Translations under genes and position numbers: made by a program
The notes under the pieces: generated by a model
The model's input: only the letters and a program-made list of their open reading frames with translations
Database searches by the model: none
What the model was told of the DNA's origin: nothing
DNA from: an uncultured Chloroflexia bacterium
GTDB taxonomy: Bacteria; Chloroflexota; Anaerolineae; Anaerolineales; RBG-16-64-43
Reading direction: 5' to 3'
NCBI GenBank assembly: GCA_963780865.1
Contig: CAWADT010000022.1
Span: 79,499 to 143,498 of the forward strand
Length of the DNA: 64,000 bases
Shown: piece after piece, positions 11,629 through 54,705 of the stretch
Position numbering within the stretch: the stretch's first letter is position 1
Layout of the letters: every line of letters begins with the position of its first letter

Positions 11629-11701
11629 GCCGACGTAGCTCAATCGGCAGAGCAACCGCCTTGTAAGTGGTAGGTTATGGGTTCGATTCCCATCGTCGGC
11701 T
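11629..11701 (+). tRNA. tRNA-Thr (anticodon UGU)
   Basis: GCCGACG acceptor pairing with CGTCGGC, D arm GCTC/GAGC, anticodon stem ACCGC/GTGGT with loop CTTGTAA, T arm ATGGG-TTCGATT-CCCAT. Confidence 0.9.
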
Positions 11702-11792
11702 TGGGCGAACATACCGGGTGACCGGTGTTAACAACATCCGATCCGCGCTGGAGGGCGGCGGGCGTGGCGGGCGGGCGACCGCACCGGTGTAG

Positions 11793-11810
11793 GGGCGATG
11801 CATGCATCGC
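11793..11810. repeat. Perfect 18-nt palindrome GGCGATGCATGCATCGCC in the tRNA spacer (gtaggggcg-type hairpin family)
   Basis: Preceded by gtagg. The same prefix occurs at the 13555-13579 hairpin. Confidence 0.6.
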
Positions 11811-11851
11811 CTCTTGTAGCGGATCGGTCTCCCGCCGGCGACGGCGAATAT

Positions 11852-11937
11852 GGGCGGTTACCCAAGTGGCCAAAGGGGACTGACTGTAAATCAGTTGGCA
11901 GCAGCCTTCGGAGGTTCAAATCCTTCACCGCCCACCA
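11852..11937 (+). tRNA. tRNA-Tyr (anticodon GUA), long variable arm, CCA encoded
   Basis: GGGCGGT acceptor pairing with ACCGCCC, followed by A-CCA. Anticodon stem ACTGA/TCAGT with loop CTGTAAA. T loop TTCAAAT. Confidence 0.9.
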
Positions 11938-12022
11938 TCGGGGTTAAGCCTGCCCCCTGAGCGAGTTGTACCGGTGATCTTCCGGTGCGGCGATTTCGCG
12001 AGGGGGGCTTGCCTGCCCTCCA

Positions 12023-12095
12023 GCCCGCGTAGCTCAGTCGGTAGAGCACACCCTTGGTAAGGGTGGGGTCATGGGTCCAATTCCCATCGCGGGCT
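12023..12095 (+). tRNA. tRNA-Thr (anticodon GGU)
   Basis: GCCCGCG acceptor pairing with CGCGGGC, anticodon stem CACCC/GGGTG with loop TTGGTAA, T arm ATGGG-TCCAATT-CCCAT. Confidence 0.9.
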
Positions 12096-12142
12096 CTCGT
12101 CGGCCGGAAGAAGACGCTCATCTTTTCTGAGGAGAAGCGACC

Positions 12143-13342
<1,200 letters not shown>

Positions 13343-13382
13343 AAGGAGCCGCGGAGCTTTCCTTCCGCGGAAGGAATAGAGG

Positions 13383-13550
13383 ATGCCAAAATCGAAAGAT
13401 GTCCGGCCGGTAATCACGCTGGCCTGCTCCGACTGCAAGGAGCGCAACTATACGACCCAGAAAAACCGGCGCAACGATCAGGCGCGGCTGGAACTCAAGA
13501 AATATTGCCCGCATTGCCGCAAGCATACGTTGCACAAGGAATCAAAATAA
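13383..13550 (+). CDS. rpmG: 50S ribosomal protein L33
   Basis: 55 aa, below the ORF-track cutoff: [55 protein letters not shown]. It has two CxxC pairs and an AGAGG RBS. Confidence 0.9.
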
Positions 13551-13558
13551 TCGCGTAG

Positions 13559-13579
13559 GGGCGGATCGCTGATCCGCCC
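13559..13579 (+). repeat. Perfect 9-bp-stem hairpin GGGCGGATC-gct-GATCCGCCC after rpmG (gtaggggcg-type family)
   Basis: Lies between the rpmG stop and tRNA-Trp. There is no U-tract, so it is more likely a repeat or processing element than a terminator. Confidence 0.55.
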
Positions 13580-13610
13580 GAATTGGGCGCACAACCGTGC
13601 GCACCAACCT

Positions 13611-13684
13611 AGGCCAGTAGCTCAATTTGGCAGAGCACCGCTCTCCAAAAGCGGGGGTTGTGGGTTCAATTCCTGCCTGGCCTG
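13611..13684 (+). tRNA. tRNA-Trp (anticodon CCA)
   Basis: AGGCCAG acceptor pairing with CTGGCCT, anticodon stem CCGCT/AGCGG with loop CTCCAAA, T arm GTGGG-TTCAATT-CCTGC. Confidence 0.9.
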
Positions 13685-14695: not shown

Positions 14696-14714
14696 CGCAG
14701 CTCCCTCTTAATCC

Positions 14715-14783
14715 GTGGGAGGGCCGCCCATCGGCCCGGCCACCCCGCGTTCGCTGTTTTCGGATTGGGAAGCGAATGCGGGG
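14715..14783 (+). promoter_or_regulatory. Structured leader upstream of rplK, candidate L1-binding autoregulatory element (copy 1)
   Basis: The sequence is gtGGGAGGGCCGcccatCGGCCCggccaCCCCGCGTTCGCtgttttcggattGGGAAGCGAATGCGGGG. It forms two stems (GGGCCG/CGGCCC and CCCCGCGTTCGC/GCGAATGCGGGG) and is ~80% identical to 15233-15301. Confidence 0.45.
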
Positions 14784-14806
14784 ATAACACCACAAGGAGA
14801 ATTCCA

Positions 14807-15232
14807 GTGGCAAAAAAATTGAAAGTCGTCGTTCGTCTGCAGATCGAGGCCGCCAAGGCCAACCCCGCGCCGCCCATCGGTCCGGCGCTGGCCGGCCATG
14901 GCATCAACCTGATGGCCTTCTGCAAGGAGTACAACGCGCGCACCGCCGGACGCGCCGGGGAGATCATCCCGGCCGAGATCAGCATCTTCACCGACGGGTC
15001 GTTCACGTTCATCCTGAAAACCCCGCCCACCCCGGTTCTGCTGCGCAAAGCGGCGGGGGTGGAGAAGGGTTCCGGCGAACCGAACCGGACCAAAGTGGGC
15101 AAGGTGACGCGCAAGCAGGTCCGCGAGATCGCCGAACTCAAACTCAAGGACATGAACGCGGTGGACCTGGAAGGCGCCATGCATATGGTGGAAGGCACCG
15201 CGCGCAATATGGGCATCACCATCGAGGAATAA
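14807..15232 (+). CDS. rplK: 50S ribosomal protein L11
   Basis: GTG start 7 nt after AAGGAGA. The protein reads [44 protein letters not shown]..., 141 aa. The track ORF begins 14 codons earlier at a TTG. Confidence 0.95.
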
Positions 15233-15301
15233 GTGGGAGGGCCGCAAAACGGCCCGGCTACCCCGCGTTCGCTGTTCTAGCAGTGGGAAGCGAAGGCGGG
15301 G
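15233..15301 (+). promoter_or_regulatory. Structured leader upstream of rplA, candidate L1-binding element (copy 2)
   Basis: Starts immediately after the rplK stop: gtGGGAGGGCCGcaaaaCGGCCCggctaCCCCGCGTTCGCtgttctagcagtGGGAAGCGAAGGCGGGG. It has the same two stems as copy 1, with loop-only differences in stem 1. Confidence 0.45.
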
Positions 15302-15323
15302 CCAAAACCACCAGGAGACAACA

Positions 15324-17410: not shown

Positions 17411-18727
17411 TTGAAGATGGATTCACGCGGTCGATCATATAATGGGAGAATGCTTTCCTGGCGGAAACACCTTCCTTACGATCCCCTACCGTTGCTTCTT
17501 GAATCCGGATGCGCGCCGGTTGCCTATTTCGCGCGGTGCGACTTGCTGGGCGACAACCCCGGCCCGGTGGAACGGCTGTGGGATCTGCCCGACGCGCAAA
17601 AGATCCTGCGCCATCAGATGAAAAACGGCGGGTGGAGATATCCTTCGCCCGCAAACACGGCGCGCAGCGCGGAGGATTACGACCAGATCGAGACCTACCG
17701 CAATCTGGGTTTTCTCGTTGAAAAGTTTGGATTCACCCGCGCGCACCCCGCCGTTCAAAAAGCGGCCGAGTTCCTGTTCTCCTCGCAAACTTCTTCCGGC
17801 GATTTCCGCGGTATCTATGGCACCCAGTATTCGCCGAATTACTCGGCGGGAATCATGGAGCTGTTGATCAAGGCGGGGTTTGAACGCGACGCGCGATTAA
17901 CGCGCGGGTTGCGCTGGCTGCTTTCGATGCGGCAGGCCGACGGCGGCTGGGCCATCCCCCTCCGCACCCGCGCGACCAGCGGGAAATGGACCGACGTGAT
18001 GCGCGCAAAAACGATCGAGCCGGACCACGCCAAGCCCTTCTCCCATATGGTTACCGGTGTCGTCCTGCGGGCCTTCGCCGCGACGGATCATTATTCCGAC
18101 AACGAGGACGTTCGCAAAGCCGGCGAATTGCTGGCTTCGCGTTTGTTCAGATCGGACGCTTATATCGACCGCAAAGCGCCGAGTTTTTGGGTGGGTTTTT
18201 CCTTCCCGTTCTGGTTCACGGATTTGCTTTCGGCGCTTGATACCCTTTCACGGTTGGGCTTTCCGGCGGAGGATCCAAACATCCGCCGGGGATTGGATTG
18301 GATTGCTCAGCGGCAGCGCAAGGACGGCGGTTGGACCCTCAAGCTGCTCAAGGGCGCGGATAAAGCCTTGCCGTATTGGCTGGACCTGGCGGTCTGCAGG
18401 ATATTTAAACAATTCGCAACTACTCGGAGATATAAAAGGGGATTGAAAAAATGTACGCGGATTTCACGGAAAAGCGCGGATTGCACGGAGGGACCAAAAT
18501 ATCGAAGGATTTTTTCAAAGGATGTTCCGCGAAATCCGCAGAGTCCGCGTAATCCGCGTACTAGTTATTCCAAGCTGAGAACTTACAAGGATTCTATTTA
18601 TCCTAACCCCTCCTCCTCAAACCCCTCCTCCTTTCCTTTCGGAAAGGGAGGGAGGGGCAGGGGAGACGGGGTTAGGTCCCCATCCTCACGACTATTCGAT
18701 GCAACACCAGGTGGCGGTCCAGGATGA
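17411..18727 (+). CDS. Prenyltransferase/squalene-oxidase-repeat (terpenoid cyclase-like alpha/alpha toroid) protein; C-terminal ~100 codons read through repeat elements
   Basis: Three DGGW-type repeats are present: QMKNGGWRY, RQADGGWAI and RQRKDGGWTL. After ...YWLDLAVCRIFKQF the frame continues without a stop through repeats 18453-18561 and 18602-18676. Confidence 0.7.
   Translation: MKMDSRGRSYNGRMLSWRKHLPYDPLPLLLESGCAPVAYFARCDLLGDNPGPVERLWDLPDAQKILRHQMKNGGWRYPSPANTARSAEDYDQIETYRNLGFLVEKFGFTRAHPAVQKAAEFLFSSQTSSGDFRGIYGTQYSPNYSAGIMELLIKAGFERDARLTRGLRWLLSMRQADGGWAIPLRTRATSGKWTDVMRAKTIEPDHAKPFSHMVTGVVLRAFAATDHYSDNEDVRKAGELLASRLFRSDAYIDRKAPSFWVGFSFPFWFTDLLSALDTLSRLGFPAEDPNIRRGLDWIAQRQRKDGGWTLKLLKGADKALPYWLDLAVCRIFKQFATTRRYKRGLKKCTRISRKSADCTEGPKYRRIFSKDVPRNPQSPRNPRTSYSKLRTYKDSIYPNPSSSNPSSFPFGKGGRGRGDGVRSPSSRLFDATPGGGPG
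18453..18561. repeat. 109-bp palindromic element with perfect 11-bp termini GTACGCGGATT / AATCCGCGTAC
   Basis: Built from cacgga/ccgcg word repeats and related in style to 35165-35273. It lies inside the 3' tail of ORF 17411..18727. Confidence 0.7.
18602..18676. repeat. C/G-arm palindromic repeat (family C): cctaacccctcctcc...cccctcctcctttcc-tttc-ggaaagggagggagggg...ggggttagg
   Basis: An imperfect long hairpin of the same C-rich-arm / G-rich-arm style as 54928-54974 and the palindrome interrupted by the IS at 28091-28166 / 29781-29810. Confidence 0.65.
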
Positions 18728-21700: not shown

Positions 21701-24700
21701 CGATCGCATGCGGATCGCCGTATTTTCCCGCGAGGGAGAGGACTTTTTCGCGCGTGTCGCCGGCGGCGATCACCAGGGAAACTTGCACGCGCTGGCCGGG
21801 CTCGAGCGCAACGCTTTCGCGGATACTCAGGATCGGGTCCAGAATAAAACCCTGGCTGTTGCCGGGCGTCTGGGTGAGCCCCAGCGGCTGGGCCAGTGTT
21901 CTCCCGCGGCCGATAAATCGGCGGCGGTCGGTTTCGAATTGCATCTTCCCCTTCGGGCGGCTGGGGCAGGGTCCACCGGTGGGCGATATACACTGGGAGC
22001 TCGTCGGCGCTCCGTTTCCTCCGGTGGGCGATCAGCGTGCGGAGGGAAGGCACCACCTCGGTTTGGATGAACAATTTTTGAAAGGCCGGATGCTGCAGAT
22101 CGGCGTTGTGCGGCGCCATCGCCAACTCGATGTAGCTTGAGAGCTCCAGGCTCCGGGCGAACAACGAACGGTTGATCAGCGTTATCCTGCGGATCTCTAC
22201 GTCGTCCTCGGACGAGACGAATACCTCCGTGGCGGTGTCGATGCCGTTGTCTCTCCGCCGGAAAACTGCGCGGTCCAGGGCGAACAGGACGGAGAAATCC
22301 TCCGGAATCTCGCCGCCTACCGGTTGATACGTAGTAGACCAAATCTTCTCCGTGGCCGGGTCGCGCAGATAACAGAAGGTGCCCCAGTGATCGCGCGTGC
22401 GATCCGACCGCCAACGGGTGATATCGCACTGTCCCCAGCGGCTGTAGCCTCCGCCGGAGTTGGTGAGCATCACGCTGTAGCCTTCGTGGCCCAGGAGCAG
22501 CGTTCGGGGCCGCAGCGTATGCGGCGTGGTGAAGCGGGTCTCGGAGACGGCGGTTTCAGAGACGGGCGACGGAGCAGCCACGCGGTCCCGCGAGGGCGCG
22601 ATGTAGGCCGGGGGCTGCAGGGGAATCCGCTCATGCAGAAGCAGCTCCGACGCCTGAAGGAGCGGGGTGGAATGGAAATACCGCTGAATTGGATTTTCTA
22701 AAAGGAAATCCGCAAGCGCCAGGAAGCACATCCCCTGGTGGTGCGCCATGTACGTCCGGATGTCGATCCCCCGCCGGCCCCTGCGATTCGGGCGGCGGCT
22801 GAAATCAATCGCATCGAAGAATCCCATTTCGCCAAGCAGCCCGACGCTCGCCAGGCGGCGGAGATTCCGAACCGACTCCTTCGGGGCGATGTTTACCGCC
22901 AGCAGGGATGCGTAAGGCGCCACCACGGTTTCCAATTCCTGCGTGCGCTTCAACCCGAGCGCAGGCACGCCGAACGCCTTGTATTGATAGGTCTTATTGA
23001 TGTCCAAGTCCCCGAACGCAGATTCGGACATGCCCCAGGGAATTCCCAAGCTGCGGCCGTAGGCGATTTGGATTCCGACTGCGTCTTTCACCGCCCGGTC
23101 GAGCAGGGTGTTCTCAAAGGATCGTTGAAAGAGAAGCGGCATCAAATATTCGAACATGGTTCCGGTCCAGCTGACGAGCACGCGCCGCCGGCCGATGGTC
23201 CGGAATAACCGGCCAAGGGAAAACCAATGTTCGATCGGGACTTCGCCGCGGGCAATGGCGATAAAACTCCCCAGCCGGGATTCGCTCGCCAGAAGATCGT
23301 AGTACGAGGTGTCGAGCCGCCCTTCGGTTACGTTGTACCCGATGGAAAACAACCTTCGATCGCGGTCATACAGGAAGCGCATGTCGACCGCTTCATAGAC
23401 GCCGCGTACGTCCCGGGAAAGCTGGCGCTCCAGGCCCAGCATCTCGCCGGAGAGCCATTTCGAAACGGAAAAGGATTGCACCACCCGATCGATCCATTCC
23501 CGCAGGGACGGTTCCGGTTCGGGAGCGCCATCGCGCATGGAGGCGAGCGCGAGCATAGCGGGAACATTCCCGGCGGCCAGATCGGAAAGGCTGGGCGTCT
23601 GGCATAGCGCATCCTGCAAGATCGGAAACCCGGCTGCCGGTTGGGATCCTATATTCCTCGGCGAGAATTTCCATCCATTGAAAATACCGATCGGCGAGAA
23701 GGATCCAGGCCTTTACTTGGTCCACCAATTGATGAATCCAGGCGGCCGTTTCCGAGCTTGCGGCAGCCTCCTTGAGAATCCCATCCGCCAGGGAATCCGT
23801 ATCCCTCCCGATTTGGCGCAGCAGCCGCAGCGCGTCGATCGCCCGTTCCGGCGGTTGGTTCAGCGCTTGCGCCAATCGGCGCAAGTGGGCGGGTTTGTTT
23901 CCCCGCCCGAATTTCCTCCGCATACGTTTGCCGGAGGATGGTTACGGTGTCGGCCAGACCGTCGAAGACGCTGGCGTCCAGGATCGGCTTTTGCATCTGC
24001 TCGGAAAGACCCGTCTCCAGCGAGTACAAGGAGGCCAGCAGGTTCCCGCTGTCGACGGTGGATACATAGCGGGGTTCGAGCGGGCGCAGGGTTTGGAGAT
24101 CGTACCAATTGAGCAGGTGGCCGTTGAACCGTTCGAGCTTTTTAACGGTCTGAACCGAGCGGGAAAGGGTTTGAACCGCCTGATCAATCGTGAGGTATCC
24201 GAAGCTCCGGGCCGCGAGCGCGCTGATTAATCCCAGGCCGATATTGGTCGGGCTGGTGCGCATGGCCATCTGGTTCTGGAAGGAAATTTGATAGTTGTCC
24301 GGCGGCAGCCAGGAGGTGGGTTCGCCGAGGCATTCGGAAAAGAAGCGCCAGGTCCGCCGGGCGACGATCCGCAGGAATCCGCGGTCCCCCGCGGAAAGGG
24401 AAAGGCGTCTGGATTTTGGCCGGAAGCGTGTGTTCAGAATCCAAACGAGTAATGGGGAGACGAACCATAAAAGGAGCCAAGGGGCGGCGGACGCCGCGTC
24501 CGACAATCTCCACCGCACAATGGCCCCGAAGCCGATCGCGCTCAACGCGGCATACGGAGTCAGGGAAAGAATGAGCGATCCCGTCTGGCTCAGGGCCCGC
24601 CGTCGAATGACCTGGGCCGAAGTCCAGTGGAGCAGCTTGCGATGGGAAACAAATTGTCTATATAAAGCTTTGGCGATGGCGTCGGACGCGAGCCAGGCCT

Positions 24701-27700
24701 GGTGCGGAAGCAGCGCCGCGTCGGCCATCCCGCGGAGCAGATCGTGCGCCAGCATGGAGGGCGAGAGTTTCGCCGCTTCCTGCCGGCTGGTGATCGCGTT
24801 AAGCATCCGGCTCAGCGGATGAAAAAAAATCGCCGCGCCCATGACGAGCGTCGCCGCCCAGCCCGCCGCCGGCGACGCGGCCCAGGCGGCCGCCAGCAGA
24901 AGCACGCCCGTCATCGGCACCAGGCTCCGGCGCAAATTATCGAAAATCTTCCAGCGGCTTATCGCCGAGAGCGTGTTGGACCCCCGCCGCCCGCCCGCCA
25001 GGGGCACGCGGGGCAGCAGCCAGTCGATGATCTGCCAGTCGCCGCGAATCCAGCGGTGCTGCCGCCGGCTCGAATCAAAATAGGTCCGGGGGAATTCGTC
25101 GAATAACTCGATATCGCTGGCCAGGCCGGTGCGGACGTGCTCTCCCTCGATCAGGTCGTGGCTGAGCAGCCGTTCCTCCGGGAAGCGGCCGGAGAGGATC
25201 CGGCTGAAGGCGCGCAGGTCGTAAATCCCTTTGCCGTTATAAGAGCCTTGCCCGGTGAGATCCTGGTACACGTCGGAGACCGCTTTCGTGTATGGATCGA
25301 TCCCGATCGGGTCGGAGAACAGCCGGCTGAACGGCGATGCCAGCATGCTGGGCAGCGAAGGGCTGACGCGCGGTTGGAGGATAGTATAGGTGCCGGCCAG
25401 GATATGGCCTTGTTCATCAAACCGGGGACGGTTGAGCGGATGCGCGAGCGTCCCGATCATCCGCCGCGCGGTTCCAGGCGGAAGCTGGGTATCGCTGTCG
25501 AGCGTGATGATGAAGCGGATGCCCTCGAGCCGGTCCGCATTTCCCGCCCGCAGCAGTTGCGGGGCGTCTTTGGGCCGGGTATTTTCCAGGAATTGATGCA
25601 GCTCCTCGAGTTTTCCGCGCTTCCGTTCGCGCCCGATGTAGCATCCTTCGGACGGACTCCATTGCCGCTCGCGATGAAATAGGAAGAAACGATCTTCCTC
25701 GTAGCGGCGGTTCAAAGCTTGCAGCGCTGTCACCGCTTGCCCCAGGAGTGGCCCATCCGATTCCCGGTGCGGGGTATCCGAATCGTCGAAATCCGAAAAG
25801 AGCGAGAAGAAAATATTCGGATCCTTGTTTCCCAGGAAGCGGATTTCCAGTTTTTCCGCTTCGACGCGGATGGTCGCGGCATCCGTCAGAAGGATCGGCA
25901 CTACCACCAGCGTGCGGAATTCGGCGGGAACACCCGAGGGGTCAAAATCCATTTTCGGGAGCGCCCGGGGGGGAAGGAAGCGCGTGAAAAAATAATTCAG
26001 AACCTGAACGGCCACCTGGCTGGCAGGCACGACGAACAGCAGGGAGAGAATCACCCGCAGCGCGGGAGACGGTTGCCTCAGGCAGAGGAGGACGATCGGC
26101 GCATACACCAGCGTGAAGGCTACGCCAAGGCCCGCGAAGAAGATTGTGCTATGGCGCGACGCCACCCAGCGGCGGTAGAAACATCGGATCTTGCGGTGGC
26201 ATCCGAGCCGGCGCGAAAGGTTGGCCCGGCCGTCGCCCACCAGATAATATCCCACGTGGCAGAGCCGGTCGTCCGCGGGCGCGCCGGCTTCCGCGGCGGC
26301 GGCGCACAGCTCGAGCACCCGTTCCGCCACGGTCAGTTCCGGCAGCCGCGATTCCCGCGACGCCTCTTCGACGGCCCCGCGGTATTTATCGCGGGTGTCG
26401 AAATCCATTTGCGGGTAAATGTCCGCCGGATCGTTGCCCAAAAGGCGGTCGACGCTGCTGGCCTCCTCGAAGATCTTTCTCCAATCCATCAGGGCGAGCT
26501 GGCGGAGGCTTGTGAACGCGTTCCCGACGGAAATCTGATCCTGGGTTTGGCGGTTTTGTTCGCGGAGAGTCAGATTCGCTCAGCGGTTGCGGCAAAACGC
26601 GTTCGAGCCAGTTCTGGACCAGCGCCAGCGCGTTGGCTTCGTCGTATAGGTAGCTGATCAACTGGGAACAAAAATATTCGCTGGGGGCGGGAAGGTTCTC
26701 GGTCAGCTTCGCCAGGATCGAGAACAGCTGGCCGGGAGCCCGCCGGTCGGCCGAGATCAGCCGGTTGGCCCAGAAACCCGCCGTCTCCCGCTCCCGCAAT
26801 TCGTTCAGCGTTCTATCGGCCAGGTATTGGATGTGTTCGATCAAGGCGATGCGCAGCATCTGAGGCAGAGCCCATAACTCGCCGATGGCGAGCGGCTGGA
26901 CGGACTGATAGGCTTCGAGGAAGGAGTGCAGATTTTCCCGGTCGAGCCGCAAATCGACGTGGGCGACGAGCTCTTTGGCCAGCGCGTAGATGCGCGGCAG
27001 GTTCAGGTACGGATTACGATCCAGCAGCGGGAGTTGACGGAAATACCGCCGGGGAAGATTGGCCCGGATGTCACGGGCGTTGCTCTCGATGATGTATTCG
27101 TTGTCGAGGATCCATTCCGCCGAGGCGGTGGTCGGCTGTTCCAGGCGGCCGGCGTCCGCCAGATCGAGGCAAATTCGATGGAGGGAGTCCGCGGCCTTCT
27201 CGACCCGGCGCAGCAATTGTTCGCCGCGAGCCGGTTTTTCCAGCAGTCGATGCTCCTGGGCGAGCTTGCGGGCAAATTGCTGAAGCTGAGCTTGCGGCAG
27301 CAGCGCGGTGGCTCCCGGATCTTCAGCGAGCTCGGCTTTCCGGGGAGGGAAGAGCAGAAAGATCGTAGGCTGGGTTTCCCCGCTTTCCCGGATGATGATC
27401 TGCGGATTGCGGAAGGTATGCAGCGGCGCCTGGAGCAGCAGAACGCTCTCGCCGGCCAGCAGCCACTGAGCGTGCTCGGCCAATACCCGGCGGTCGATGC
27501 CGTATCGGGACCGCCGGAAACCTATCCCTCCGAAAACCGCTCCCAAACCGGCGCCCGCCAGAATGGGAATCCAGAGCGGGTAGGAGAGACCGGGATTCGC
27601 CGCCGATCGGGAGAGCAGCGAATAGAGCAGACCGGCCGCTGCGGAGAGGAGGCCGGCCAACAGGACGATCAGGAGCAGGCGCAGCCGGGCAAAAGTGTCC

Positions 27701-27918
27701 CTCACCCGCACGGATCCATCAGAGAGGCGGTGCAAGACGGCCGCGCGTGAAAGGCCATTCTTCTCCAATTCCCAAACGGCTTTCTCCGCATTTCGGTCGT
27801 TTAAAAAGTAAGCCGCCAGAAGGCTGAATCCGCCTTTTTGTTTTTCCGCGACGATGCGCGGCATGGTTTTCAATACCGACTCGGGTTTCATGGCGCTGCC
27901 CTTCACTGTCCGGTCCAC
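18672..27918 (-). pseudogene. Cyclic beta-1,2-glucan synthase-like giant gene (N-terminal membrane region + GT84-like + GH94-like), split into 7 ORFs by six 1-nt frame shifts
   Basis: The same-strand ORFs 26386..27918, 23649..26489, 23393..23923, 21379..23619, 19416..21944, 18761..19525 and 18672..18944 read as one ~3,050-codon protein. This requires single-nt corrections near 26575-26586, 23894-23904, 23640-23655, 21945-21955, 19526-19535 and 18820-18822. Motifs are AEWILDNEYII; SVGNAFTSLRQLALMDWRKIFEE, which is recovered across junction 1; TLDSDTQLP and RWIRGDWQ; and the GH94-like RENGGQYTHAALW and GRGGWSWYTGSAGWMY. Confidence 0.85.
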
Positions 27919-27992
27919 AGTATATCCTGCCGGATCAGGAGGTCAAAACCGCCGGAATGATTTATCCGGCATTCGCGAGATGAAGTGTTCCC

Positions 27993-28021
27993 GGCAGCTT
28001 GCCCCGCACTCCTCTTTATTA
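27993..28021. repeat. Left half of palindrome family A (ggcagcttgccccgcactc + loop ctctttatta), split by a 2,006-bp insertion
   Basis: Compare the intact copy at 43989-44043. The right half is at 30028-30053, and TTA is present at both junctions (28019-21 and 30028-30). Confidence 0.8.
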
Positions 28022-28166
28022 GGTTTCAAAACCACTGCCTCTGGCAGTGAGTGGAATGAAAAGGTTCTACCGATGGAGTAGGCATCATGACCCATCCCAT
28101 CTCTCCTCCCCCGGCCCGAGCACGGCTCGGGCCGTCCCCCTCCTCCCTTCCCGTATTACGGGAAGG
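28022..28166. repeat. Left part of a ~390-bp nested element: terminal hairpin B (28033-28049, CACTGCC-tct-GGCAGTG) and left arm plus apex of palindrome C (28091-28166)
   Basis: The left arm of palindrome C is cccatcccatctctcct...tccccctcctcccttcccgta. It carries an extra 23-nt hairpin, CGGCCCGAG-cacgg-CTCGGGCCG, at 28112-28134. The apex is t, followed by tacgggaaGG. Confidence 0.75.
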
Positions 28167-28174
28167 ACATACTC

Positions 28175-28180
28175 TGTCAA
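28175..28180 (-). promoter_or_regulatory. Outward-facing -35 hexamer TTGACA, 8 nt from the IS right end (transposase orientation)
   Basis: The minus strand reads ...catcTTGACAgagtatgt| and then the element ends. It pairs with TAGAAT at 29773-29768 only after circularisation. Confidence 0.6.
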
Positions 28181-28305
28181 GATGCAGAAATTGAAAAAGG
28201 AGCGATTCTCTCTCGGAAACAAAACTGGGATTTTGTCCGATGGGCCAGGAACACAACGGTGCTTGTCCAAAACGCCGCTCTCGTTCCGAAATGGGTTGGA
28301 AAGGA

Positions 28306-29523
28306 TCAGGATATCGGGATTTTATCCGCCCGGTCTTTCAAGTGCCGGTTTTCGTCATAAAGTGTTTGTGTTTGCCAAAGCCTCCAGAGGACTGACAACC
28401 AGCGGTTGGCTAGGCAACGGTAGGCCTGCGCATCGCTCGAACAGCGCAATCGCACCTGTTGGAAGTACATTTGCGCCCAAGGCGATTCCGGCAGGGAGGC
28501 ACGCGCCCATTGTTGCGCGATGGTGCGGAACTCATGATCGCAGGAACGGCGGAATTTGACGTACCTCCGTTTCCCGCTCGCATCGGTCACCGGACATGTT
28601 CCCGCCAGCATCTGCAGCGAAGAGGGAGAAGGAAACCGGGAAAGATCTTCCCCCACCTTCGCCAGAAGTGCCGGAGCCAGATAGGCACCGGCCCCCGGCA
28701 GACTGGAAAATACCGGCGCCAAGGAGTGCTGTTCGAACAAGGGCTTGAGATCTTTCAGCGCCTGATATTTAGCGCGGACCAAAGCCAAGGTTGTCTCGGA
28801 GGTATGGACAATGACATTCCGAAACGCCTCCGCCGTATCCGAATCAGCATGGATCGCATTTTCCTGCAATCGGGCGAAACGCGAAGCCAACTTCCGGGGA
28901 GCGGGATACCGGTGCTGGCGGGCGAATTGAAGAAAGGCTTCCCATGTCAGCTGGGAGGCTTCTTGCGGGGTGGGAAAAAGTCTCAGGAAATGCAGGGAAA
29001 TCTGGGCATCCAGGTTGCAAAACAGTGTGGCGGCAGACGGGAAACAACGCAAGAGCACATCCCGCAGGCGGTTGGTTTGCCGAACGATATCGCGGGTGAG
29101 ATTGCCGATATGCCTTACCTGGATCTGCACCCGGCGGAGGGTTGAGCTTCCCGGAGACCAGGGCTGCAGGCGTTGCCGTTTGGTGCGCACCAGATCGGCT
29201 ATGATTTCCGCATCCCCTGGATCGGACTTGGCCCCGCTGCTAGTGCGCGTCTTTCGTTCGGCTTTGACCCGGTTGGGTGGGGCCACCCAAATGTGGGTGA
29301 AACCATTCGCCCAAAGGAAATCAATCAGAAGGGTGTACGAGCACTCGATGGCAAGGAAACAATCCTCCGGATCGGCTCCCAATCCGCGGGTTCGTTCCAC
29401 CAGGAGAGCGAAACCCGCTGCGGAATGGGGGATTTGGAATTTTGCCAGCAGGCTTCCTTCCTGGTTCTGGAAGCAAATATCATGTTTGGATCGGCTCCAG
29501 TCGATTCCTATGTACAATTGCAT
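28306..29523 (-). CDS. IS110-family (DEDD / RuvC-like + Tnp_20-like) transposase/recombinase
   Basis: 405 aa from ATG 29523, which is preceded by AAGGAGG. The sequence starts MQLYIGIDWSRSKHDICF. It continues with ...GAKSDPGDAEIIADL... and ...FSSLPGAGAYLAPALLAKVGEDLSRFPSPSSLQMLAGTCPVTDASGKR. It then shows ...SCDHEFRTIAQQWA... and ...YRCLANRWLSVLW. Confidence 0.92.
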   Translation of the reverse strand: MQLYIGIDWSRSKHDICFQNQEGSLLAKFQIPHSAAGFALLVERTRGLGADPEDCFLAIECSYTLLIDFLWANGFTHIWVAPPNRVKAERKTRTSSGAKSDPGDAEIIADLVRTKRQRLQPWSPGSSTLRRVQIQVRHIGNLTRDIVRQTNRLRDVLLRCFPSAATLFCNLDAQISLHFLRLFPTPQEASQLTWEAFLQFARQHRYPAPRKLASRFARLQENAIHADSDTAEAFRNVIVHTSETTLALVRAKYQALKDLKPLFEQHSLAPVFSSLPGAGAYLAPALLAKVGEDLSRFPSPSSLQMLAGTCPVTDASGKRRYVKFRRSCDHEFRTIAQQWARASLPESPWAQMYFQQVRLRCSSDAQAYRCLANRWLSVLWRLWQTQTLYDENRHLKDRADKIPIS

Positions 29524-29569
29524 GAGGGCCTCCTTATGGCGGAACGAGAGGTCCACCAGCACGGCCGAT

Positions 29570-29761
29570 CGGCTGTATCCCTGTTATGGCGCTAGTCGCG
29601 CAACATACTGTCGTCAGTCCCAATTCGGCGAACTTGGGAGACGGTCCTTCCCGGGCGCTCAAAGCGCAGAGGGGGGGTGGTCTTTTTCCCCAAGTCTGTG
29701 ACCGGTGGGTATGGCTTGGCTACGGACAAGCACGCACGCAGCCATATACCACCGGTCGCCT
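29570..29761 (-). ncRNA. Candidate bridge (guide) RNA in the IS110 left end: 5' stem-loop, target-binding loop, donor-binding loop
   Basis: On the minus strand there is a 5' stem ACCGGTGGTATATGGC...GCCATACCCACCGGT. Two internal loops follow, each built around a GCGC-N5-GCGC hairpin. Loop 1 strands are CCCCCTC (29675-29669) and CGGGAAGG (29653-29646). Loop 2 strands are AGTATGT (29609-29603) and TAACAGG (29586-29580). See the findings for the matches to the ends and the target. The extent of the RNA is approximate. Confidence 0.6.
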
Positions 29762-29767
29762 TTTTTT

Positions 29768-29773
29768 ATTCTA
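29768..29773 (-). promoter_or_regulatory. -10 hexamer TAGAAT, 7 nt inside the IS left end
   Basis: The minus strand reads |tgttagtTAGAATaaaaaaaggcgacc. It would direct transcription into the structured left-end RNA and the transposase gene. Confidence 0.55.
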
Positions 29774-29780
29774 ACTAACA

Positions 29781-30027
29781 GGGAGGAGGGGATAGGAGAG
29801 GTGGGATGGGAATGGGAAGAAGTATAGATAACGGGAAGTTGAGAAGAAAAAGTTTGACCAGTATTGAAGGAGGATGGAGCGGAGCAAATGGCACCGAATC
29901 ACATATATAAAAAAAGAGGAAAAGGGGATCTTGCGGGCGCGTAATGCGGTTGTTCGAAAAGGATCGGCAGGAGCACACCTTCCAGGTGCAGCAATCCAAA
30001 GCCACCGTCTCTGGCAGTGGTTATTTA
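29781..30027. repeat. Right part of the ~390-bp nested element: right arm of palindrome C (29781-29810) and terminal hairpin B' (30002-30020)
   Basis: The right arm is GGgaggagggga t aggagaggtgggatggg. The element ends ...ccaccgtctctggcagtggttattta. Confidence 0.75.
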
Positions 30028-30053
30028 TTACTCGAAGAGTGCGGGGCTCGACG
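30028..30053. repeat. Right half of split palindrome A (ttactcgaa + gagtgcggggctcgacg)
   Basis: Pairs with 27993-28021. It is followed at ~30068-30105 by the ataccgcgcggtcattca motif, which also follows the intact A copy at 44068-44100. Confidence 0.8.
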
Positions 30054-30353
30054 TACCTGTTCAGGGGGGTGGCGCTCCGCGATACCGCGCGGTCATTCAG
30101 CGCGGTTCCATCTATAGAGAGGTGTCTATGGCCAATCGCTTTCGAAGTTCCGCCCCGGCATGATCCGCAGCATAAAAAAAATCGAGGTTTTCAGAATCTC
30201 GTTTTTTATTTAGAGGGACAATTCAAGGAGAACGCGGATTCGATGGTTGCGTAGAGAGGGCTTCCCCCCTCGGAGCGCGAATCGATCAAGGGTGGAAAGG
30301 AACGTATTTTTCGCGGTCCGGAAAATTACTCGCCGACGAAATATTTTGATATT

Positions 30354-43901: not shown

Positions 43902-43960
43902 AGACCGCGTCGAAGTTTGTTTGGACCGTGTCGGGCTTTCAGACCGACGCGGTCTTTTTA
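43902..43960 (+). terminator. Long-loop hairpin with U-tract after 42333..43850
   Basis: AGACCGCGTCG-(32 nt)-CGACGCGGTCT followed by tttta. Confidence 0.4.
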
Positions 43961-43988
43961 TCCCGCTCTCGCGGGATGATGAATACCC

Positions 43989-44043
43989 CGCAGCTTGCCC
44001 CGCACTCCTCTATATTAATCGAAGAGTGCGGGGCAAGCTGCGC
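43989..44043. repeat. Intact palindrome family A (19-bp arms CGCAGCTTGCCCCGCACTC / GAGTGCGGGGCAAGCTGCG, 16-nt AT-rich loop)
   Basis: A perfect inverted repeat, used as the reference for the split copy at 27993-28021 / 30028-30053. Confidence 0.9.
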
Positions 44044-44097
44044 AGTTCTTGTGGGTTGTGCCCTTTGATACCGCGCGGCTTGCTGCGCGGTCATTCA

Positions 44098-44994
44098 TCA
44101 GATCACGGCCGCGAGGGGCGCGGGGGCTGCGATACTACTCGCGGCGGCGCCGCGTGCGCGGGCATCCTCAACCTGGCGCGCCCAGAGGAACAGGCAGGTA
44201 TGATAAGCCGTCTTGGCGTAGGAGGCGAGCACGGTGGCCACGGCGATGACGATACCGGCGATCAGAACCGCCGCTCCGAGACCCGCGACGACGCCCGCGG
44301 CCGACCAGGAAGAGAATCTTCCGGCGAGGTAGAAAATCCCTCCGCCCACGGCAAACGCCAGCACGATGACGACCGCGGCGAGGATATCCACCACCCCGGT
44401 CACCCCGATTTCAGTGACCGCCACGAGCAAAAGATTGTCCTTGATAATCTGAGTGGCGCGTTTGAGCGATTGGCCGAGGTTTAGGTCTTCGAGAATCATA
44501 GCGGGAAGCACAAAGTAGGTGGCGGTGGTCCAGACTGCCGCGAGGATTCCCGCCAGCATCCCGCCCAGCAGATTTTGGCGCCCGCGCCGCCCGCTGCCAA
44601 ATAGATTTTCCAGCAGTTTTACCAGCGTCGATGCGGCCGCGAGGGAAAGGATGTTGAACAGCTCCCGGCGGACGGCGGCCCAGGCCTGGTCCATCCGGCC
44701 GTCGCCTTCGGTCAGATAATCGTAGACCAGGCGGACGGTCATTCCGGAAAAGACGTAGGCGACGGCGTATTCCAGGAAGAAAACCACAGGACTGAGGATC
44801 AGGAAGATCCACGGCAGATAAGCGCGAATTCCCGGCAGGAAGGCCAGGCCGATGCCGGCCACGGCGCCGAACAGCGACACGACCGCTCCGAGAATCAGGG
44901 CGTAGATGGACGGTTTTACCAGGTCGGGGTCCTTCACGGCCATCTGGTAGGCCTGGCCCAAAAACCCGAACCCGCGCCGGAAGGAATTCATCAT
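44098..44994 (-). CDS. Polytopic membrane protein, unknown function
   Basis: 298 aa starting MMNSFRRGFGFLGQAYQMAVKDPDLVKPSIYALILGAVV, with about six hydrophobic helices. Confidence 0.7.
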   Translation of the reverse strand: MMNSFRRGFGFLGQAYQMAVKDPDLVKPSIYALILGAVVSLFGAVAGIGLAFLPGIRAYLPWIFLILSPVVFFLEYAVAYVFSGMTVRLVYDYLTEGDGRMDQAWAAVRRELFNILSLAAASTLVKLLENLFGSGRRGRQNLLGGMLAGILAAVWTTATYFVLPAMILEDLNLGQSLKRATQIIKDNLLLVAVTEIGVTGVVDILAAVVIVLAFAVGGGIFYLAGRFSSWSAAGVVAGLGAAVLIAGIVIAVATVLASYAKTAYHTCLFLWARQVEDARARGAAASSIAAPAPLAAVI

Positions 44995-47535: not shown

Positions 47536-47608
47536 TTGTCGTTACGAGGAGCGAAGCGACGAAGCAACCTGGTTTTTTCTGCCGCGAAAACCAGATTGCT
47601 TCGCTCTC
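47536..47608. repeat. Short palindromic element (gaggagcgaagcgacgaagcaacctgg ... ccagattgcttcgctctc)
   Basis: Shares its arm sequence with 47721-47860. Confidence 0.7.
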
Positions 47609-47720: not shown

Positions 47721-47860
47721 ATGTCATTGCGAGGAGCGAAGCGACGAAGCAATCTGGTTTTACCATCCGCGCATCAGTCCCCCTTTCCATTGGCTGATGG
47801 CACTCATTCGGTCATTATTGGGAGATTGCTTCGCTCCCTTTGGTCGCTCGCAATGACATC
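47721..47860. repeat. 140-bp MITE-like element with ~34-bp terminal inverted repeats (atgtcattgcgaggagcgaagcgacgaagcaatc / gattgcttcgctccctttggtcgctcgcaatgacat)
   Basis: The terminal inverted repeats are read directly from the sequence. Track ORFs 47536..47856 and 47721..47936 are translations of this repeat DNA. Confidence 0.8.
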
Positions 47861-50306: not shown

Positions 50307-50461
50307 GTCATGCCCGAGCCTGCCCTCGCGCCGGCCCCCCGAGCGATGAGCATCGGTGACCCTTCGATGCGAAGAATTCGTGAGTGGGGGGAGCATTCCC
50401 ACTCGAATCTGGTTGTTGAGTGGGAATGAATGCGAAGCGAGGGTGATTATATCGGGCATCC
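50307..50461. repeat. 155-bp expanded member of hairpin family F (gtcatgcccgag ... atcgggcatcc) carrying an internal inverted copy of the 95-bp element
   Basis: The outer arms are identical to the 40-bp tandem units. The inner sequence ...gggaatgaatgcgaagcgagggtg is the reverse complement of the caccctcgct(t/a)cgcattcat block at 50897 and 54722. Confidence 0.65.
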
Positions 50462-50706
50462 ATGAAAGCTTGTCATGCCCGAGTGGTCGTATCGGGCATC
50501 CATGAAAGCTTGTCATGCCCGAGTGGTCGTATCGGGCATCCACGGGAGCCTGTCATGCCCGAGTAGTCTTATCGGGCATCCACGGGAGCCTATCATGACC
50601 GAGAAGGCGTATCAGGCAGCCATGAGAGCCTGTCATGCCCGAGAAGGCGTATCAGGCAGCCATGAGAGCCTGTCATGCCCGAGTGATTCTATCGGGCATC
50701 CACGCG
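50431..50706 (+). repeat. Tandem array of ~7 units of a 40-bp repeat, each containing the hairpin ATGCCCGA-N9-TCGGGCAT (family F minimal unit)
   Basis: tgtcatgccc recurs at 50471, 50511, 50551, 50631 and 50671, with a degenerate copy at 50591 (tatcatgacc), giving an exact 40-bp period. Units differ in the 7-8-nt loop and the 9-nt linker. Confidence 0.9.
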
Positions 50707-50878
50707 TTTTATTTTCTTGACAAAATGTTGATTTTGGATTCCCGCCCCCCGAGAAACCCACTCGAGGGCAGGCTAATCCACGCGGGAATGACGAACACCC
50801 TTCAGATAAGTTCGTCCCGGATGAATGATCGAATTGGGCATCCATGGGGAAGAAATATCTTCCATTATTGCTGGTGTT

Positions 50879-54669: not shown

Positions 54670-54705
54670 AGAAGAAGAGTGATTGATGCTTGCAAAGCAT
54701 GGACT

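What the first reader, a model, noticed from the sequence alone, without database searches (positions are those of the whole stretch)
27993..30053. Four-level nested insertion: IS110 inside palindrome C, inside a ~390-bp hairpin-ended element, inside the loop of palindrome A
Palindrome A is intact at 43989-44043, with 19-bp arms and the 16-nt loop ctctatattaatcgaa. At 27993-30053 the same palindrome is split in its loop by 2,006 bp.
- TTA is present at both junctions (28019-21 and 30028-30).
- Removing the insert plus one TTA gives the loop ctctttattactcgaa. This is again 16 nt, with 2 substitutions, consistent with a 3-bp target duplication.

The insert begins and ends with related hairpins (ccactgcctctggcagtg and ccaccgtctctggcagtgg). 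It contains the long C/G-arm palindrome C. Palindrome C in turn carries a 23-nt hairpin insertion in its left arm (28112-28134) and the IS110 element in its right arm.

The same nesting style recurs at 50307-50461, where a 95-bp element sits inside a family-F hairpin. This suggests that these palindromes are, or were, mobile and preferentially land in each other's loops or arms.
Basis: seen in the sequence. Interest (0 to 1): 0.6.

Follow-up and report, generated by a model that had tools for sequence, protein, structure and literature searches.

The report
Two insertion sequences nested in palindromes
A stack of insertions in an Anaerolineales genome is real, but its two large layers are ordinary mobile elements: a bridge-RNA-guided IS110 sitting in its programmed palindromic target, inside a transposase-less mini-IS200 that landed at its TTTATTA target in the loop of a REP-like hairpin.

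Summary
A ~150-bp composite of REP-like hairpins, intact at 43957-44098, is interrupted at 28021/30031 by 2,009 bp.

The interpretation needs revising in three places.
- **The "hairpin-ended ~390-bp element" is a non-autonomous IS200.** Its ends match ~650-bp metagenomic IS200 copies that carry a Y1 tnpA. Thirteen of 14 independent left flanks end in TTTATTA, so the "TTA duplication" is the family's target plus the element's own right end, not a target-site duplication.
- **The IS110 spans 28166-29779 (1,614 bp) with a CT core on both sides.** Removing it restores a perfect 39-bp palindrome. Its ends would form a TTGACA-17-TAGAAT promoter on a circle. Its 5' non-coding region folds as a bridge RNA whose target-loop guides match the palindrome C arm. 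In relatives inserted at other sites, those guides change to match the new targets.
- **Palindrome C is a separate dispersed repeat.** IS-free copies exist, but how it got into the mini-IS200 is unresolved.

A further layer is possible: the 40-nt core of palindrome A is missing from the orthologous site and from three composite copies in related genomes.

Other IS200 insertion sites show no preference for hairpin loops. Both mechanisms are known, so this is a tidy new example rather than a new kind of element.

The parts
27961..28021 (+). Left part of the interrupted composite REP-like element. It holds a degenerate hairpin (27964-27981), the left arm of palindrome A (27994-28011), the loop bases CTC, and the TTTATTA target (28015-28021).
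   Evidence: 84% identical to 43957-44017. The arm matches exactly.
28022..30030 (+). Mini-IS200, a non-autonomous IS200/IS605-family element that carries palindrome C and the IS110. It is 393 bp without the IS110. The left end is 28022-~28078 with its hairpin at 28032-28049. A 12-nt remnant of the tnpA start, CATCATGACCCA, lies at 28083-28094. The right end is ~29951-30030 with hairpins at 29973-29989 and 30002-30020, and it terminates in TTTATTA.
   Evidence: The left end is 95% identical over 58 nt to the tnpA-bearing IS200 copy in L058 (E 1e-20). The right end is 85% identical over 61 nt to L024. There is no tnpA anywhere in the window. Left flanks of family members end in TTTATTA.
28091..28165 (+). 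Palindrome C, left side. Outer arm 28091-28112, side hairpin 28113-28133, inner arm CCCCTCCTCCCTTCCCGTA 28137-28155, centre T at 28156, then the first 9 nt of the inner right arm, which include the AG (= CT) core at 28164-28165.
   Evidence: Inverted repeats I1 and I3. The reconstructed 104-nt C folds as a Y-shaped structure at -53.9 kcal/mol, z -11.9.
28166..29779 (-). IS110-family insertion sequence, 1,614 bp. The left end begins GTTAGTTAGAAT and the right end finishes TTGACAGAGTATGTC, both in IS orientation.
   Evidence: Homology with L001 and L002 stops at these ends. The CT core is present on both sides. Removing the IS and one core copy restores a perfect 39-bp palindrome (direct reading).
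28306..29523 (-). IS110 transposase gene, 405 aa.
   Evidence: Pfam DEDD_Tnp_IS110 (1.9e-30) and Transposase_20 (1e-12). NCBIfam NF033542, IS110 family RNA-guided transposase, 145.8 bits against a cut-off of 140. Identical to public protein P0121.
29560..29765 (-). Candidate bridge RNA. 5' stem-loop 29700-29757. Target-binding loop with left guide ACCCCCCCTCT (29668-29678), apical hairpin (29655-29667) and right guide CCGGGAAGG (29646-29654). Donor-binding loop with ACAGTATGT (29603-29611), hairpin (29589-29601) and ATAACAGGG (29579-29587).
   Evidence: 87% column identity across six elements whose transposases are only 68-76% identical to the window's. The consensus fold has three stem-loops. 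The guides change with the target in L132 and L137.
28175..28180 (-). -35 hexamer TTGACA in the IS110 right end. With TAGAAT at 29768-29773 it would form a TTGACA-17-TAGAAT promoter across the CT core of a circular junction.
   Evidence: Direct reading. The same arrangement is present in L001 and L002. Junction promoters are described for IS110 elements in PMC11208160.
29780..29810 (+). Palindrome C, right side. Second copy of the core AG (29780-29781), the rest of the inner right arm GGAGGAGGGG (29782-29791), AT, then the outer right arm (29794-29810).
29811..29950 (+). Internal 140 bp of the mini-IS200. Origin unknown, 43% GC.
   Evidence: No match elsewhere in the window or in any fetched locus. 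No significant similarity to full-length IS200.
30031..30105 (+). Right part of the interrupted composite. Loop bases CTCGAA, the inner 11 nt of A's right arm (30037-30047), a diverged outer arm, and the downstream REP-type hairpin ACCGCGCGG...GCGCGGT.
   Evidence: Alignment to 44018-44098.
43957..44098 (+). Uninterrupted copy of the composite element, with palindrome A intact at 43989-44043 (loop contains TATATTA).
   Evidence: fold -53.4 kcal/mol, z -9.8.
18607..18675 (+). IS-free compound palindrome of the C type, from a different subfamily with outer arms CTAACCCC/GGGGTTAG.

Best explanation
The locus records successive, mechanistically distinct insertions into an intergenic composite of REP-like hairpins in an Anaerolineales (Chloroflexota) genome.

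1. **Mini-IS200 into palindrome A.** An IS200-type element that has lost its tnpA integrated immediately 3' of TTTATTA, which here lies in the 16-nt loop of palindrome A. IS200/IS605 elements move as single strands. Their Y1 transposase recognises the subterminal hairpins at the left and right ends, joins the left end 3' of a short target, and makes no duplication. The mini-element would depend on a TnpA supplied in trans. These mechanistic steps are inferred from the family.

2. **Palindrome C inside the mini-IS200.** The place of tnpA is taken by palindrome C, a member of a separate family of dispersed compound palindromes, plus 140 bp of unknown origin. How C got there is unresolved.

3. 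**IS110 into palindrome C.** A 1,614-bp IS110-family element then integrated into one arm of C at a CT core. Its upstream non-coding region encodes a bridge RNA. The target-loop guides of that RNA pair with CCCCTCCTC(C)-CT-TCCCG, and the donor-loop guides pair with the element's own joined ends. Palindrome C is therefore the element's programmed target, as REP sequences are for IS621.

A possible earlier layer is a 40-nt palindromic core that turned a short REP hairpin (CGCAGCTTGCTGCG in relatives) into palindrome A.
For: IS200 identity
- A metagenome scan with the shared hairpin motif returned 120 loci, whose matches are mostly IS200-type left or right ends.
- The ~650-bp copies in L023, L028, L058, L104, L113, L048 and L013 carry a 147-aa ORF. 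It scores 6.7e-40 against Pfam Y1_Tnp and 145 bits against NCBIfam transpos_IS200.
- The window's left end is 95% identical over 58 nt to L058. The right end is 85% identical over 61 nt to L024.
- tblastn finds no tnpA in the window.
- tnpA-less copies of ~230 bp of a sister subfamily exist in L024 and L059.
- Thirteen of 14 independent left flanks end in TTTATTA.
- TTTATTA occurs only 5 other times on both strands of the 64-kb window.

IS110
- Domain matches.
- Boundaries set by homology with L001 and L002, with a CT core on both sides.
- Excision restores a 19+1+19 perfect palindrome.
- TTGACA-17-TAGAAT would form across the joined ends.
- The 5' non-coding region is more conserved than the gene and folds into a 5' stem-loop plus two internal-loop hairpins.
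- Guide and target change together. Here rc means reverse complement and LT is the top-strand sequence left of the core.

| Element | Left guide vs LT | rc of right guide vs C + core + right target |
|---|---|---|
| window | 8 of 9 | CCTTCCCG, 8 of 8 |
| L132 | TTTATCC, matches LT | CCGCTTT, matches |
| L137 | ATGACCTTTC, matches LT | CCCCAAAAA, matches |

- The sense of each pairing agrees with the published rule: the left guide pairs with the bottom strand and the right guide with the top strand (PMC11208160).

C is a target, not part of the IS
- IS-free C copies occur in L129 (3190-3320), in L003 and in the window at 18607-18675.
- Sister IS copies in L132 and L137 have no C around them.

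Extra layer
- The orthologous intergenic region in L126 is collinear with the window but lacks both the A core and the insert.
- Composite copies in L129, L130 and L133 have the short hairpin instead of A.
Against: - No empty allele of this exact site (A intact, no mini-IS200) was found, and no IS-free copy of this mini-IS200.
- The mini-element's internal 140 bp is unique in all data fetched. The only close second copy of its left end is a 31-nt stretch at a contig end in another MAG (L002). Its current mobility is therefore not shown.
- No tnpA-bearing partner was seen in the 64-kb window.
- The left target guides of L001, L002 and L138 match their own insertion sites poorly (3-6 of 11). The targets are low-complexity C-runs, so part of the window's left-guide match could be compositional.
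- No flanking signature shows that C was inserted into the mini-IS200 rather than acquired by rearrangement.
- The A-core difference could be a deletion in the relatives rather than an insertion here.
Confidence: 0.85

Rival explanations
1. The palindromes themselves (A, the hairpin-ended element, C and F) are small mobile elements, and they preferentially insert into the loops or arms of other palindromes because of structure rather than sequence.
For: - Nesting recurs. The inner element in the F-type hairpins is present at three places.
- The A core is absent from the L126 orthologous site and from composite copies in L129, L130 and L133.
- A sister IS110 sits in another hairpin of the same composite family.
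- A 2026 preprint reports that ISPpu10 needs a hairpin in its target DNA (abstract only).
Against: - The two large layers are bona fide insertion sequences with sequence-defined targets.
- The four other reconstructable IS200 insertion sites do not put TTTATTA in a stable loop: -1.9 to -8.3 kcal/mol, against -14.8 for the window's site.
- No solo copy of the A core was found anywhere.
- L137's IS110 target is not an obvious palindrome.
Confidence: 0.12
2. Same parts, different order. The IS110 was already inside palindrome C when the mini-IS200 transposed, so the whole 2,009-bp unit arrived in palindrome A in one step, as an IS110 carried by an IS200 shell.
For: - Both IS200 ends are intact and well conserved: the left end is 95% identical to a tnpA-bearing copy.
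- IS200/IS605 transposition depends only on the end hairpins and cleavage sites (family knowledge).
- Nothing in the sequence orders the two events.
Against: - IS110 excision would restore a perfect 19-bp-arm palindrome. In contrast, A's outer right arm at this site has already decayed in 8 of 19 positions, which suggests the IS110 event is the younger one.
- No second copy of the 2-kb unit was seen.
Confidence: 0.2
3. Palindrome C is not a target. Its arms are the long terminal inverted repeats of a larger IS110-containing transposon.
For: Three diverged IS copies (window, L001, L002) are all flanked by similar inner and outer C arms.
Against: - IS-free C palindromes exist in L129, L003 and the window at 18.6 kb.
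- Sister IS copies with the same termini lack C arms (L132-L137).
- The IS lies asymmetrically inside one arm, and its removal leaves a perfect palindrome.
- The bridge-RNA right guide is complementary to the arm.
Confidence: 0.03
4. The nested arrangement is an assembly artefact caused by joining repeats in a metagenome-assembled contig.
For: - The source is a metagenomic contig of 195,469 bp.
- Repeats break related assemblies here: L130 ends 91 bp after the kinase gene, and many IS contigs are only ~1.6 kb long.
Against: - Every junction is exact and biologically coherent: the two halves of A, TTTATTA at both ends, the CT core at both ends, and a perfect palindrome on excision.
- A Logan contig from run ERR10755942 matches 28137-29644 at 100%, across the junction between the IS110 right end and C. 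Whether that run is independent of the source assembly is unknown.
Confidence: 0.03

Closest known systems
IS621, ISPpu9 and ISPpu10 (IS110 family, IS110 group): bridge-RNA-guided recombinases that insert into REP sequences
   Same: - DEDD plus Transposase_20 recombinase.
- No terminal inverted repeats, and a CT core on both sides.
- A sigma-70-type promoter would be rebuilt across the joined ends.
- An upstream non-coding RNA with a target-binding and a donor-binding loop.
- The natural target is an intergenic palindromic repeat (PMC11208160).
   Different: - A new element: the closest public transposase is 88% identical.
- A different host phylum (Chloroflexota).
- The target is a C-rich/G-rich compound palindrome rather than an enterobacterial or Pseudomonas REP.
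- Activity and RNA expression are not shown.
IS200 (IS200/IS605 family) and its tnpA-less derivatives (palindrome-associated transposable elements, PATEs)
   Same: - Subterminal hairpins at both ends in direct orientation.
- Both ends are homologous to tnpA-bearing copies.
- Insertion 3' of a fixed short target without duplication.
- No tnpA. PATEs are named in PMC3119063, PMC7290912 and PMC10055086 (titles and abstracts only).
   Different: - Only one copy of this particular mini-element was seen.
- Its interior is not a simple deletion. It carries a foreign compound palindrome and 140 bp of unknown origin.
- The apparent target is a 7-nt motif (TTTATTA), longer than the 4-5 nt usually quoted for the family (own knowledge).
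REP and BIME elements, and IS insertion into REPs (Tobes and Pareja 2006, cited in PMC11208160)
   Same: - Short intergenic palindromes arranged in composites.
- Repeated at several loci and across related genomes.
- Used as landing sites by IS110-family elements.
   Different: - Copy number in this genome is unknown: two composite copies in 64 kb.
- No RAYT transposase was seen.
- The palindromes here are themselves layered (an inner palindrome inside a short hairpin; C with outer arms, inner arms and a side hairpin).

Membership tests
IS110 family (IS110 group, bridge-RNA recombinases) | Recombinase with an N-terminal DEDD RuvC-like domain and a C-terminal Transposase_20 domain | tested here: met
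   Pfam PF01548 at 1.9e-30 and PF02371 at 1e-12. NCBIfam NF033542 at 145.8 bits against a cut-off of 140.
IS110 family (IS110 group, bridge-RNA recombinases) | No terminal inverted repeats; a 2-bp core (CT) present at both junctions; scarless excision | tested here: met
   CT flanks the element in the window, L001, L002 and L138. The ends GTTAGT... and ...AGTATGTC are not inverted repeats. Removing the IS and one CT leaves a perfect 39-bp palindrome.
IS110 family (IS110 group, bridge-RNA recombinases) | Promoter reconstituted across the joined right and left ends of the circular form | tested here: met
   TTGACA (right end), 17 nt, TAGAAT (left end) by direct reading. This is sequence only; the circle itself was not observed.
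IS110 family (IS110 group, bridge-RNA recombinases) | Upstream non-coding RNA with two internal loops whose guides match the target and the donor | tested here: met
   The conserved fold has a 5' stem-loop and two loop-bearing hairpins. The donor guides AGTATGT and TAACAGG match the right end and the core-plus-left-end. The target guides change with the target in L132 and L137. The Rfam scan returned no bridge-RNA match, only chance-level hits.
IS110 family (IS110 group, bridge-RNA recombinases) | RNA-dependent recombination activity and a circular intermediate | not testable with these tools
   Needs an experiment or read-level data.
IS200/IS605 family, non-autonomous derivative (PATE-like mini-IS200) | Subterminal imperfect hairpins at the left and right ends, on the same strand | tested here: met
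   Hairpins at 28032-28049 and 30002-20 are direct copies, 87% identical over 23 nt.
IS200/IS605 family, non-autonomous derivative (PATE-like mini-IS200) | Ends homologous to those of copies that encode a Y1 (HUH) TnpA | tested here: met
   Left end 95% over 58 nt to L058. Right end 85% over 61 nt to L024. L058 and L023 carry a Y1_Tnp ORF.
IS200/IS605 family, non-autonomous derivative (PATE-like mini-IS200) | Insertion 3' of a conserved short target, without target duplication | tested here: met
   Thirteen of 14 independent left flanks end in TTTATTA. Right ends finish in TTTACTT or TTTATTA, followed by unrelated sequence.
IS200/IS605 family, non-autonomous derivative (PATE-like mini-IS200) | Lacks tnpA and tnpB | tested here: met
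   No tblastn hit to TnpA in the window. The interior shows no significant similarity to the full-length element.
IS200/IS605 family, non-autonomous derivative (PATE-like mini-IS200) | Multiple copies of the same short element (evidence of mobilisation in trans) | tested here: inconclusive
   One copy in the window. One near-identical left end at a contig end in L002. The interior was not found elsewhere.
REP/BIME-type repeats (composite A, palindrome C) | Short intergenic palindromes repeated at many loci of a genome | tested here: inconclusive
   The composite has 2 copies in the window and copies in L126, L129, L130 and L133. C-type palindromes occur in the window (2 copies), L001, L002, L003, L129 and L138. 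Genome-wide copy number is unknown.
REP/BIME-type repeats (composite A, palindrome C) | Association with a RAYT (REP-associated tyrosine transposase) | tested here: not met
   An IS200 TnpA query, which also weakly matches the RAYT model, finds nothing in the window. The rest of the genome was not examined.

The most novel reading that the evidence does not exclude
In this Anaerolineales lineage, intergenic hairpins may grow by repeated loop- or arm-directed insertion. The layers would be: the A core inside a short REP hairpin, an inner element inside F hairpins, an IS200 derivative inside A's loop, and an IS110 inside C. The mini-IS200 carrying a C palindrome would then act as a portable landing pad. 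That would let a double-strand, RNA-guided IS110 be carried around by a single-strand IS200 transposase. This would be cooperation between two unrelated transposition systems, plus a structural (single-stranded loop) component to IS200 target choice.
Probability: 0.12. Interest if true: 0.55.

Novelty: new member of a known kind. Interest (0 to 1): 0.33.

Why it matters
- It gives a clean natural example, in an uncultured Chloroflexota lineage, of a bridge-RNA IS110 clade whose close relatives have retargeted between different host palindromes. The guide and target changes are visible directly in the sequence.
- It shows that what looks like a stack of "mobile palindromes" can resolve into two well-understood insertion sequences plus REP-like repeats. 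That is useful for annotating repeat-rich intergenic regions in metagenome-assembled genomes.
- The unexplained parts are modest leads rather than discoveries: how palindrome C entered the IS200 shell, how the A core arose, and what the compound palindromes do.

Tried and rejected
- **Rfam scans.** Neither the gathering-threshold scan of the window nor the E<=10 scan of 27900-30200 returned a bridge-RNA or other relevant family.
- **Kinase look-up from the window reference.** It failed. A likely cause is that the GTG start was translated as V. The identical protein P0001 was found through the homology search instead.
- **Empty site for the mini-IS200.** The orthologous loci L126-L131 gave a collinear region only in L126, and that one lacks the A core as well as the insert. 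No allele with A intact and no insert was obtained.
- **Empty site for palindrome C.** The L129 intergenic region does not align with the others.
- **tnpA remnants inside the mini-element.** The local alignment score equals the shuffle mean. The only trace is a collinear 12-nt match to the tnpA start.
- **Left-guide matches for L001, L002 and L138.** They are poor (3-6 of 11) and are not counted as support.
- **Hairpin-loop preference of IS200 insertions.** Not seen in the four other complete sites.
- **C as long inverted repeats of the IS110.** Rejected because IS-free C copies exist.
- **Inference from where Logan contig L005 ends (28137 and 29644).** I considered using it to argue for additional IS copies, but dropped it as too indirect.


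Full report
**1. Observation**

The region was read directly.
- The left arm of palindrome A, GCAGCTTGCCCCGCACTC, occurs exactly three times in the window: both arms at 43990-44041 and one at 27994-28011. Chance expectation is 0.13.
- The matching right half lies 2 kb away, at 30034-30047 (repeat I2).
- Homology with the intact copy is broader than palindrome A. Positions 27961-28021 are 84% identical to 43957-44017, and 30059-30092 are 74% identical to 44045-44078. The repeated unit is a ~150-bp composite of several hairpins. At 43.9 kb it lies between convergent genes, and it folds at -53.4 kcal/mol, z -9.8.
- At the filled site only the inner 11 nt of A's right arm are conserved.
- The two terminal hairpins of the insert are direct copies of each other.

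**2. The hairpin-ended element is an IS200 derivative**

A metagenome scan with a degenerate motif covering both hairpins returned 120 loci. Sorted by flank, the matches are mostly of two kinds.
- Left ends read ...TTTATTA|G(G/A)GTACAAAACCACTGCCTCTGGCAGTGAGTGGAGTAAAAAGGTTATACCG..., and the sequences diverge just 5' of TTTATTA.
- Right ends read ...GCGCACCTTCCAGGTGCG..CAAAGCCACCGCCTCTGGCGGTGGTAATTTTACTT|, followed by unrelated sequence.

The evidence that these are IS200 ends:
- The window's left end (28015-28072) is 95% identical to L058. Its right end is up to 85% identical to these right ends.
- In L023, L028, L058, L104, L113, L048 and L013 the two ends lie ~650 bp apart and enclose a 147-aa ORF. 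That ORF scores 6.7e-40 against Pfam Y1_Tnp and 145 bits against NCBIfam IS200/IS605 transposase.
- The window has no tnpA.
- The mini-element keeps the left end, and a collinear 12-nt match to the tnpA start (CATCATGACCCA). It then runs into palindrome C, followed by 140 bp with no detectable relative and ~80 nt of right end.
- tnpA-less copies of ~230 bp of a sister subfamily exist in L024 and L059.

Target choice:
- Thirteen of 14 independent left flanks, including one in another Anaerolineales MAG (L002), end in TTTATTA.
- Full-length copies end in TTTACTT with no duplication after it.
- The "TSD" is therefore the family's target on the left plus the element's own terminus on the right. 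That is what is expected for IS200/IS605 elements, which insert 3' of a short target without duplication (family knowledge).
- TTTATTA is rare in this 60%-GC window: five other occurrences on both strands.
- The reconstructed empty sites of four other complete copies (L023, L058, L104, L048) do not place the target in a stable hairpin loop. Sequence explains the choice of A's loop without needing a structural preference. A contribution from the single-stranded loop cannot be excluded.

**3. The IS110 and its target**

- The ORF on the minus strand (28306-29523, 405 aa) has the DEDD_Tnp_IS110 and Transposase_20 domains. It passes the NCBIfam model for IS110 family RNA-guided transposases.
- Homology with two copies from an Anaerolineales MAG (L001 and L002, 69-70% amino-acid identity) delimits the element. 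In IS orientation it runs from GTTAGTTAGAAT... to ...TTGACAGAGTATGTC, which is window 29779 down to 28166 (1,614 bp). CT is present on both sides.
- Deleting the IS and one CT gives CCCCTCCTCCCTTCCCGTA-T-TACGGGAAGGGAGGAGGGG, a perfect 39-bp palindrome.
- Joining the right end to the left end would create TTGACA-17 nt-TAGAAT across the core. This is the junction promoter described for IS110 elements (PMC11208160).
- The ~200 nt between the left end and the start codon are 87-88% identical among six elements whose transposases are only 68-76% identical to the window's. They fold into a 5' stem-loop and two hairpins, each with a large internal loop and a GCGC-N5-GCGC tip.
- In the second hairpin (the donor loop) the loop strands are nearly invariant. 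AGTATG(T) equals the right-end terminus. TAACAGG is the reverse complement of CCTGTTA, which is the core plus the left end.
- In the first hairpin (the target loop) the loop strands vary with the insertion site:

| Element | Left guide | Right guide | Insertion site |
|---|---|---|---|
| window | ACCCCCCCTCT | CCGGGAAGG | ...CCCCTCCTCC-CT-TCCCG... |
| L132 | GTTTTTATCCC | CAAAAGCGG | ...TTTATCC-C(T/G)-CTTTCGCGG... |
| L137 | ATGACCTTTCT | TTTTTGGGG | ...ATGACCTTTCC-C(T/C)-CAAAAACTG... |

- The sense of each match agrees with the published rule: the left guide has the sense of the top strand, and the right guide is its reverse complement.
- The left guides of L001, L002 and L138 fit their sites less well. 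I do not count them.
- IS110 elements are known to target REP sequences.

**4. Palindrome C**

- Reconstructed without the IS, C is 104 nt long. It folds as a Y-shaped structure with an outer stem, a 21-nt side hairpin and the 39-bp inner palindrome, at -53.9 kcal/mol, z -11.9.
- Copies with the same outer arms (CCATCCCATCC.../...GGATGGGATGG) surround the IS in L001 and L002. An IS-free copy occurs in L129, in the intergenic region downstream of the orthologous kinase gene.
- A second subfamily (CTAACCCC.../...GGGGTTAG) is IS-free in the window at 18607-18675 and in L003.
- The spacers between the outer and inner arms vary and often hold a small hairpin. The "23-nt hairpin insertion" may therefore be a variable spacer rather than a separate insertion.
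- C is a dispersed repeat and the IS110's target, not part of the IS.
- I found no signature showing how C entered the mini-IS200 (and direct reading of the flanks).

**5. A further layer**

- The kinase next to the insert is identical to public protein P0001, on a 195,469-bp contig.
- In the orthologous locus of a relative (L126, kinase 86% identical) the intergenic region is collinear with the window's. It includes the flanking hairpins but lacks both the insert and ~40 nt of palindrome A.
- Composite copies in L129, L130 and L133 carry the short hairpin CCGCAGCTTGCTGCGCAG at that place.
- A therefore equals that short hairpin plus a 40-nt palindromic core. No solo copy of the core was found. 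Insertion, palindrome extension, and deletion in the relatives all remain possible.
- A sister IS110 (P0126, 75% identical; L132-L136) is inserted in another hairpin of this same composite family.

**6.

- At 50307-50461 an F-type hairpin encloses an element that is homologous, in reverse orientation, to 50878-50973 and 54705-54800.
- Those two copies are themselves F-like hairpins around a structured inner element of roughly 75 nt.
- The nesting style is a real feature of this genome. Its mechanism for these small repeats is unknown.

**7. Verdict**

However, its two major layers are a new member of the IS110 bridge-RNA family in its programmed palindromic target, and a tnpA-less IS200 at the family's sequence target. 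Both mechanisms are established. What remains unexplained is the origin of C inside the IS200 shell, the origin of the A core and of the F inner elements, and whether single-stranded loops favour IS200 insertion. Interest is moderate to low.

Noticed in passing
window 50410-50729: Tandem array of a 40-nt unit. The repeat finder reports six overlapping 120-nt windows at 40-nt spacing, about eight units by my reading. Each unit contains the F hairpin ATGCCCGA-N9-TCGGGCAT. No spacers, so it is not CRISPR-like.
   Followed up: partly
window 50878-50973, 54705-54800 and 50307-50461: Three copies of an F-like hairpin (ATCCCCGC...GCGGGGAT) enclosing a structured inner element of roughly 75 nt (CACCCTCGC...GCGAGGG). 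The third copy is inverted and carries roughly 45 extra nt.
   Followed up: partly
window 18607-18675: IS-free compound C/G-arm palindrome of a second subfamily (outer arms CTAACCCC/GGGGTTAG), also seen next to the IS110 fragment in L003. It is a potential unoccupied IS110 target.
   Followed up: partly
L132-L136 (Logan runs ERR43347xx and ERR3804376); compare window 43957-43975: A sister IS110 (transposase 75% identical) is inserted in the first hairpin of the same composite REP family that contains palindrome A. Its bridge-RNA target guides are changed to match.
   Followed up: yes
L126 7339-7757; L129 4369-4469; L130 107-264; L133 1603-1657: Composite REP copies in related genomes carry a short hairpin CCGCAGCTTGCTGCGCAG where the window has the 55-nt palindrome A. 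L130 has a different ~75-nt insertion elsewhere in the composite.
   Followed up: partly
window 14710-14800 and 15228-15318: A 91-nt repeat (84% identical) ending in AAGGAGA, with an internal CCCCGCGTTCGC...GCGAATGCGGGG hairpin. It may be a conserved leader of two neighbouring genes. No Rfam family matched.
   Followed up: no
window 23649-27918 (minus strand): Two long ORFs (946 aa and 510 aa) overlap by ~100 bp. In L131, the gene after the one next to the kinase is a single 3,076-aa gene with GH94 and glycoamylase domains. If that is the ortholog, the window gene may be frameshifted or split; I did not check the correspondence.
   Followed up: no
window 47537-47586 and 47722-47771; 57890-58050 and 58357-58517: Further short dispersed repeats: a 50-nt unit TGTC(G/A)TT(A/G)CGAGGAGCGAAGCGACGAAGCAA at 86% identity, and a 161-nt unit at 83%. 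Their nature is unknown.
   Followed up: no
window 11629-13684: Cluster of four tRNA genes.
   Followed up: no
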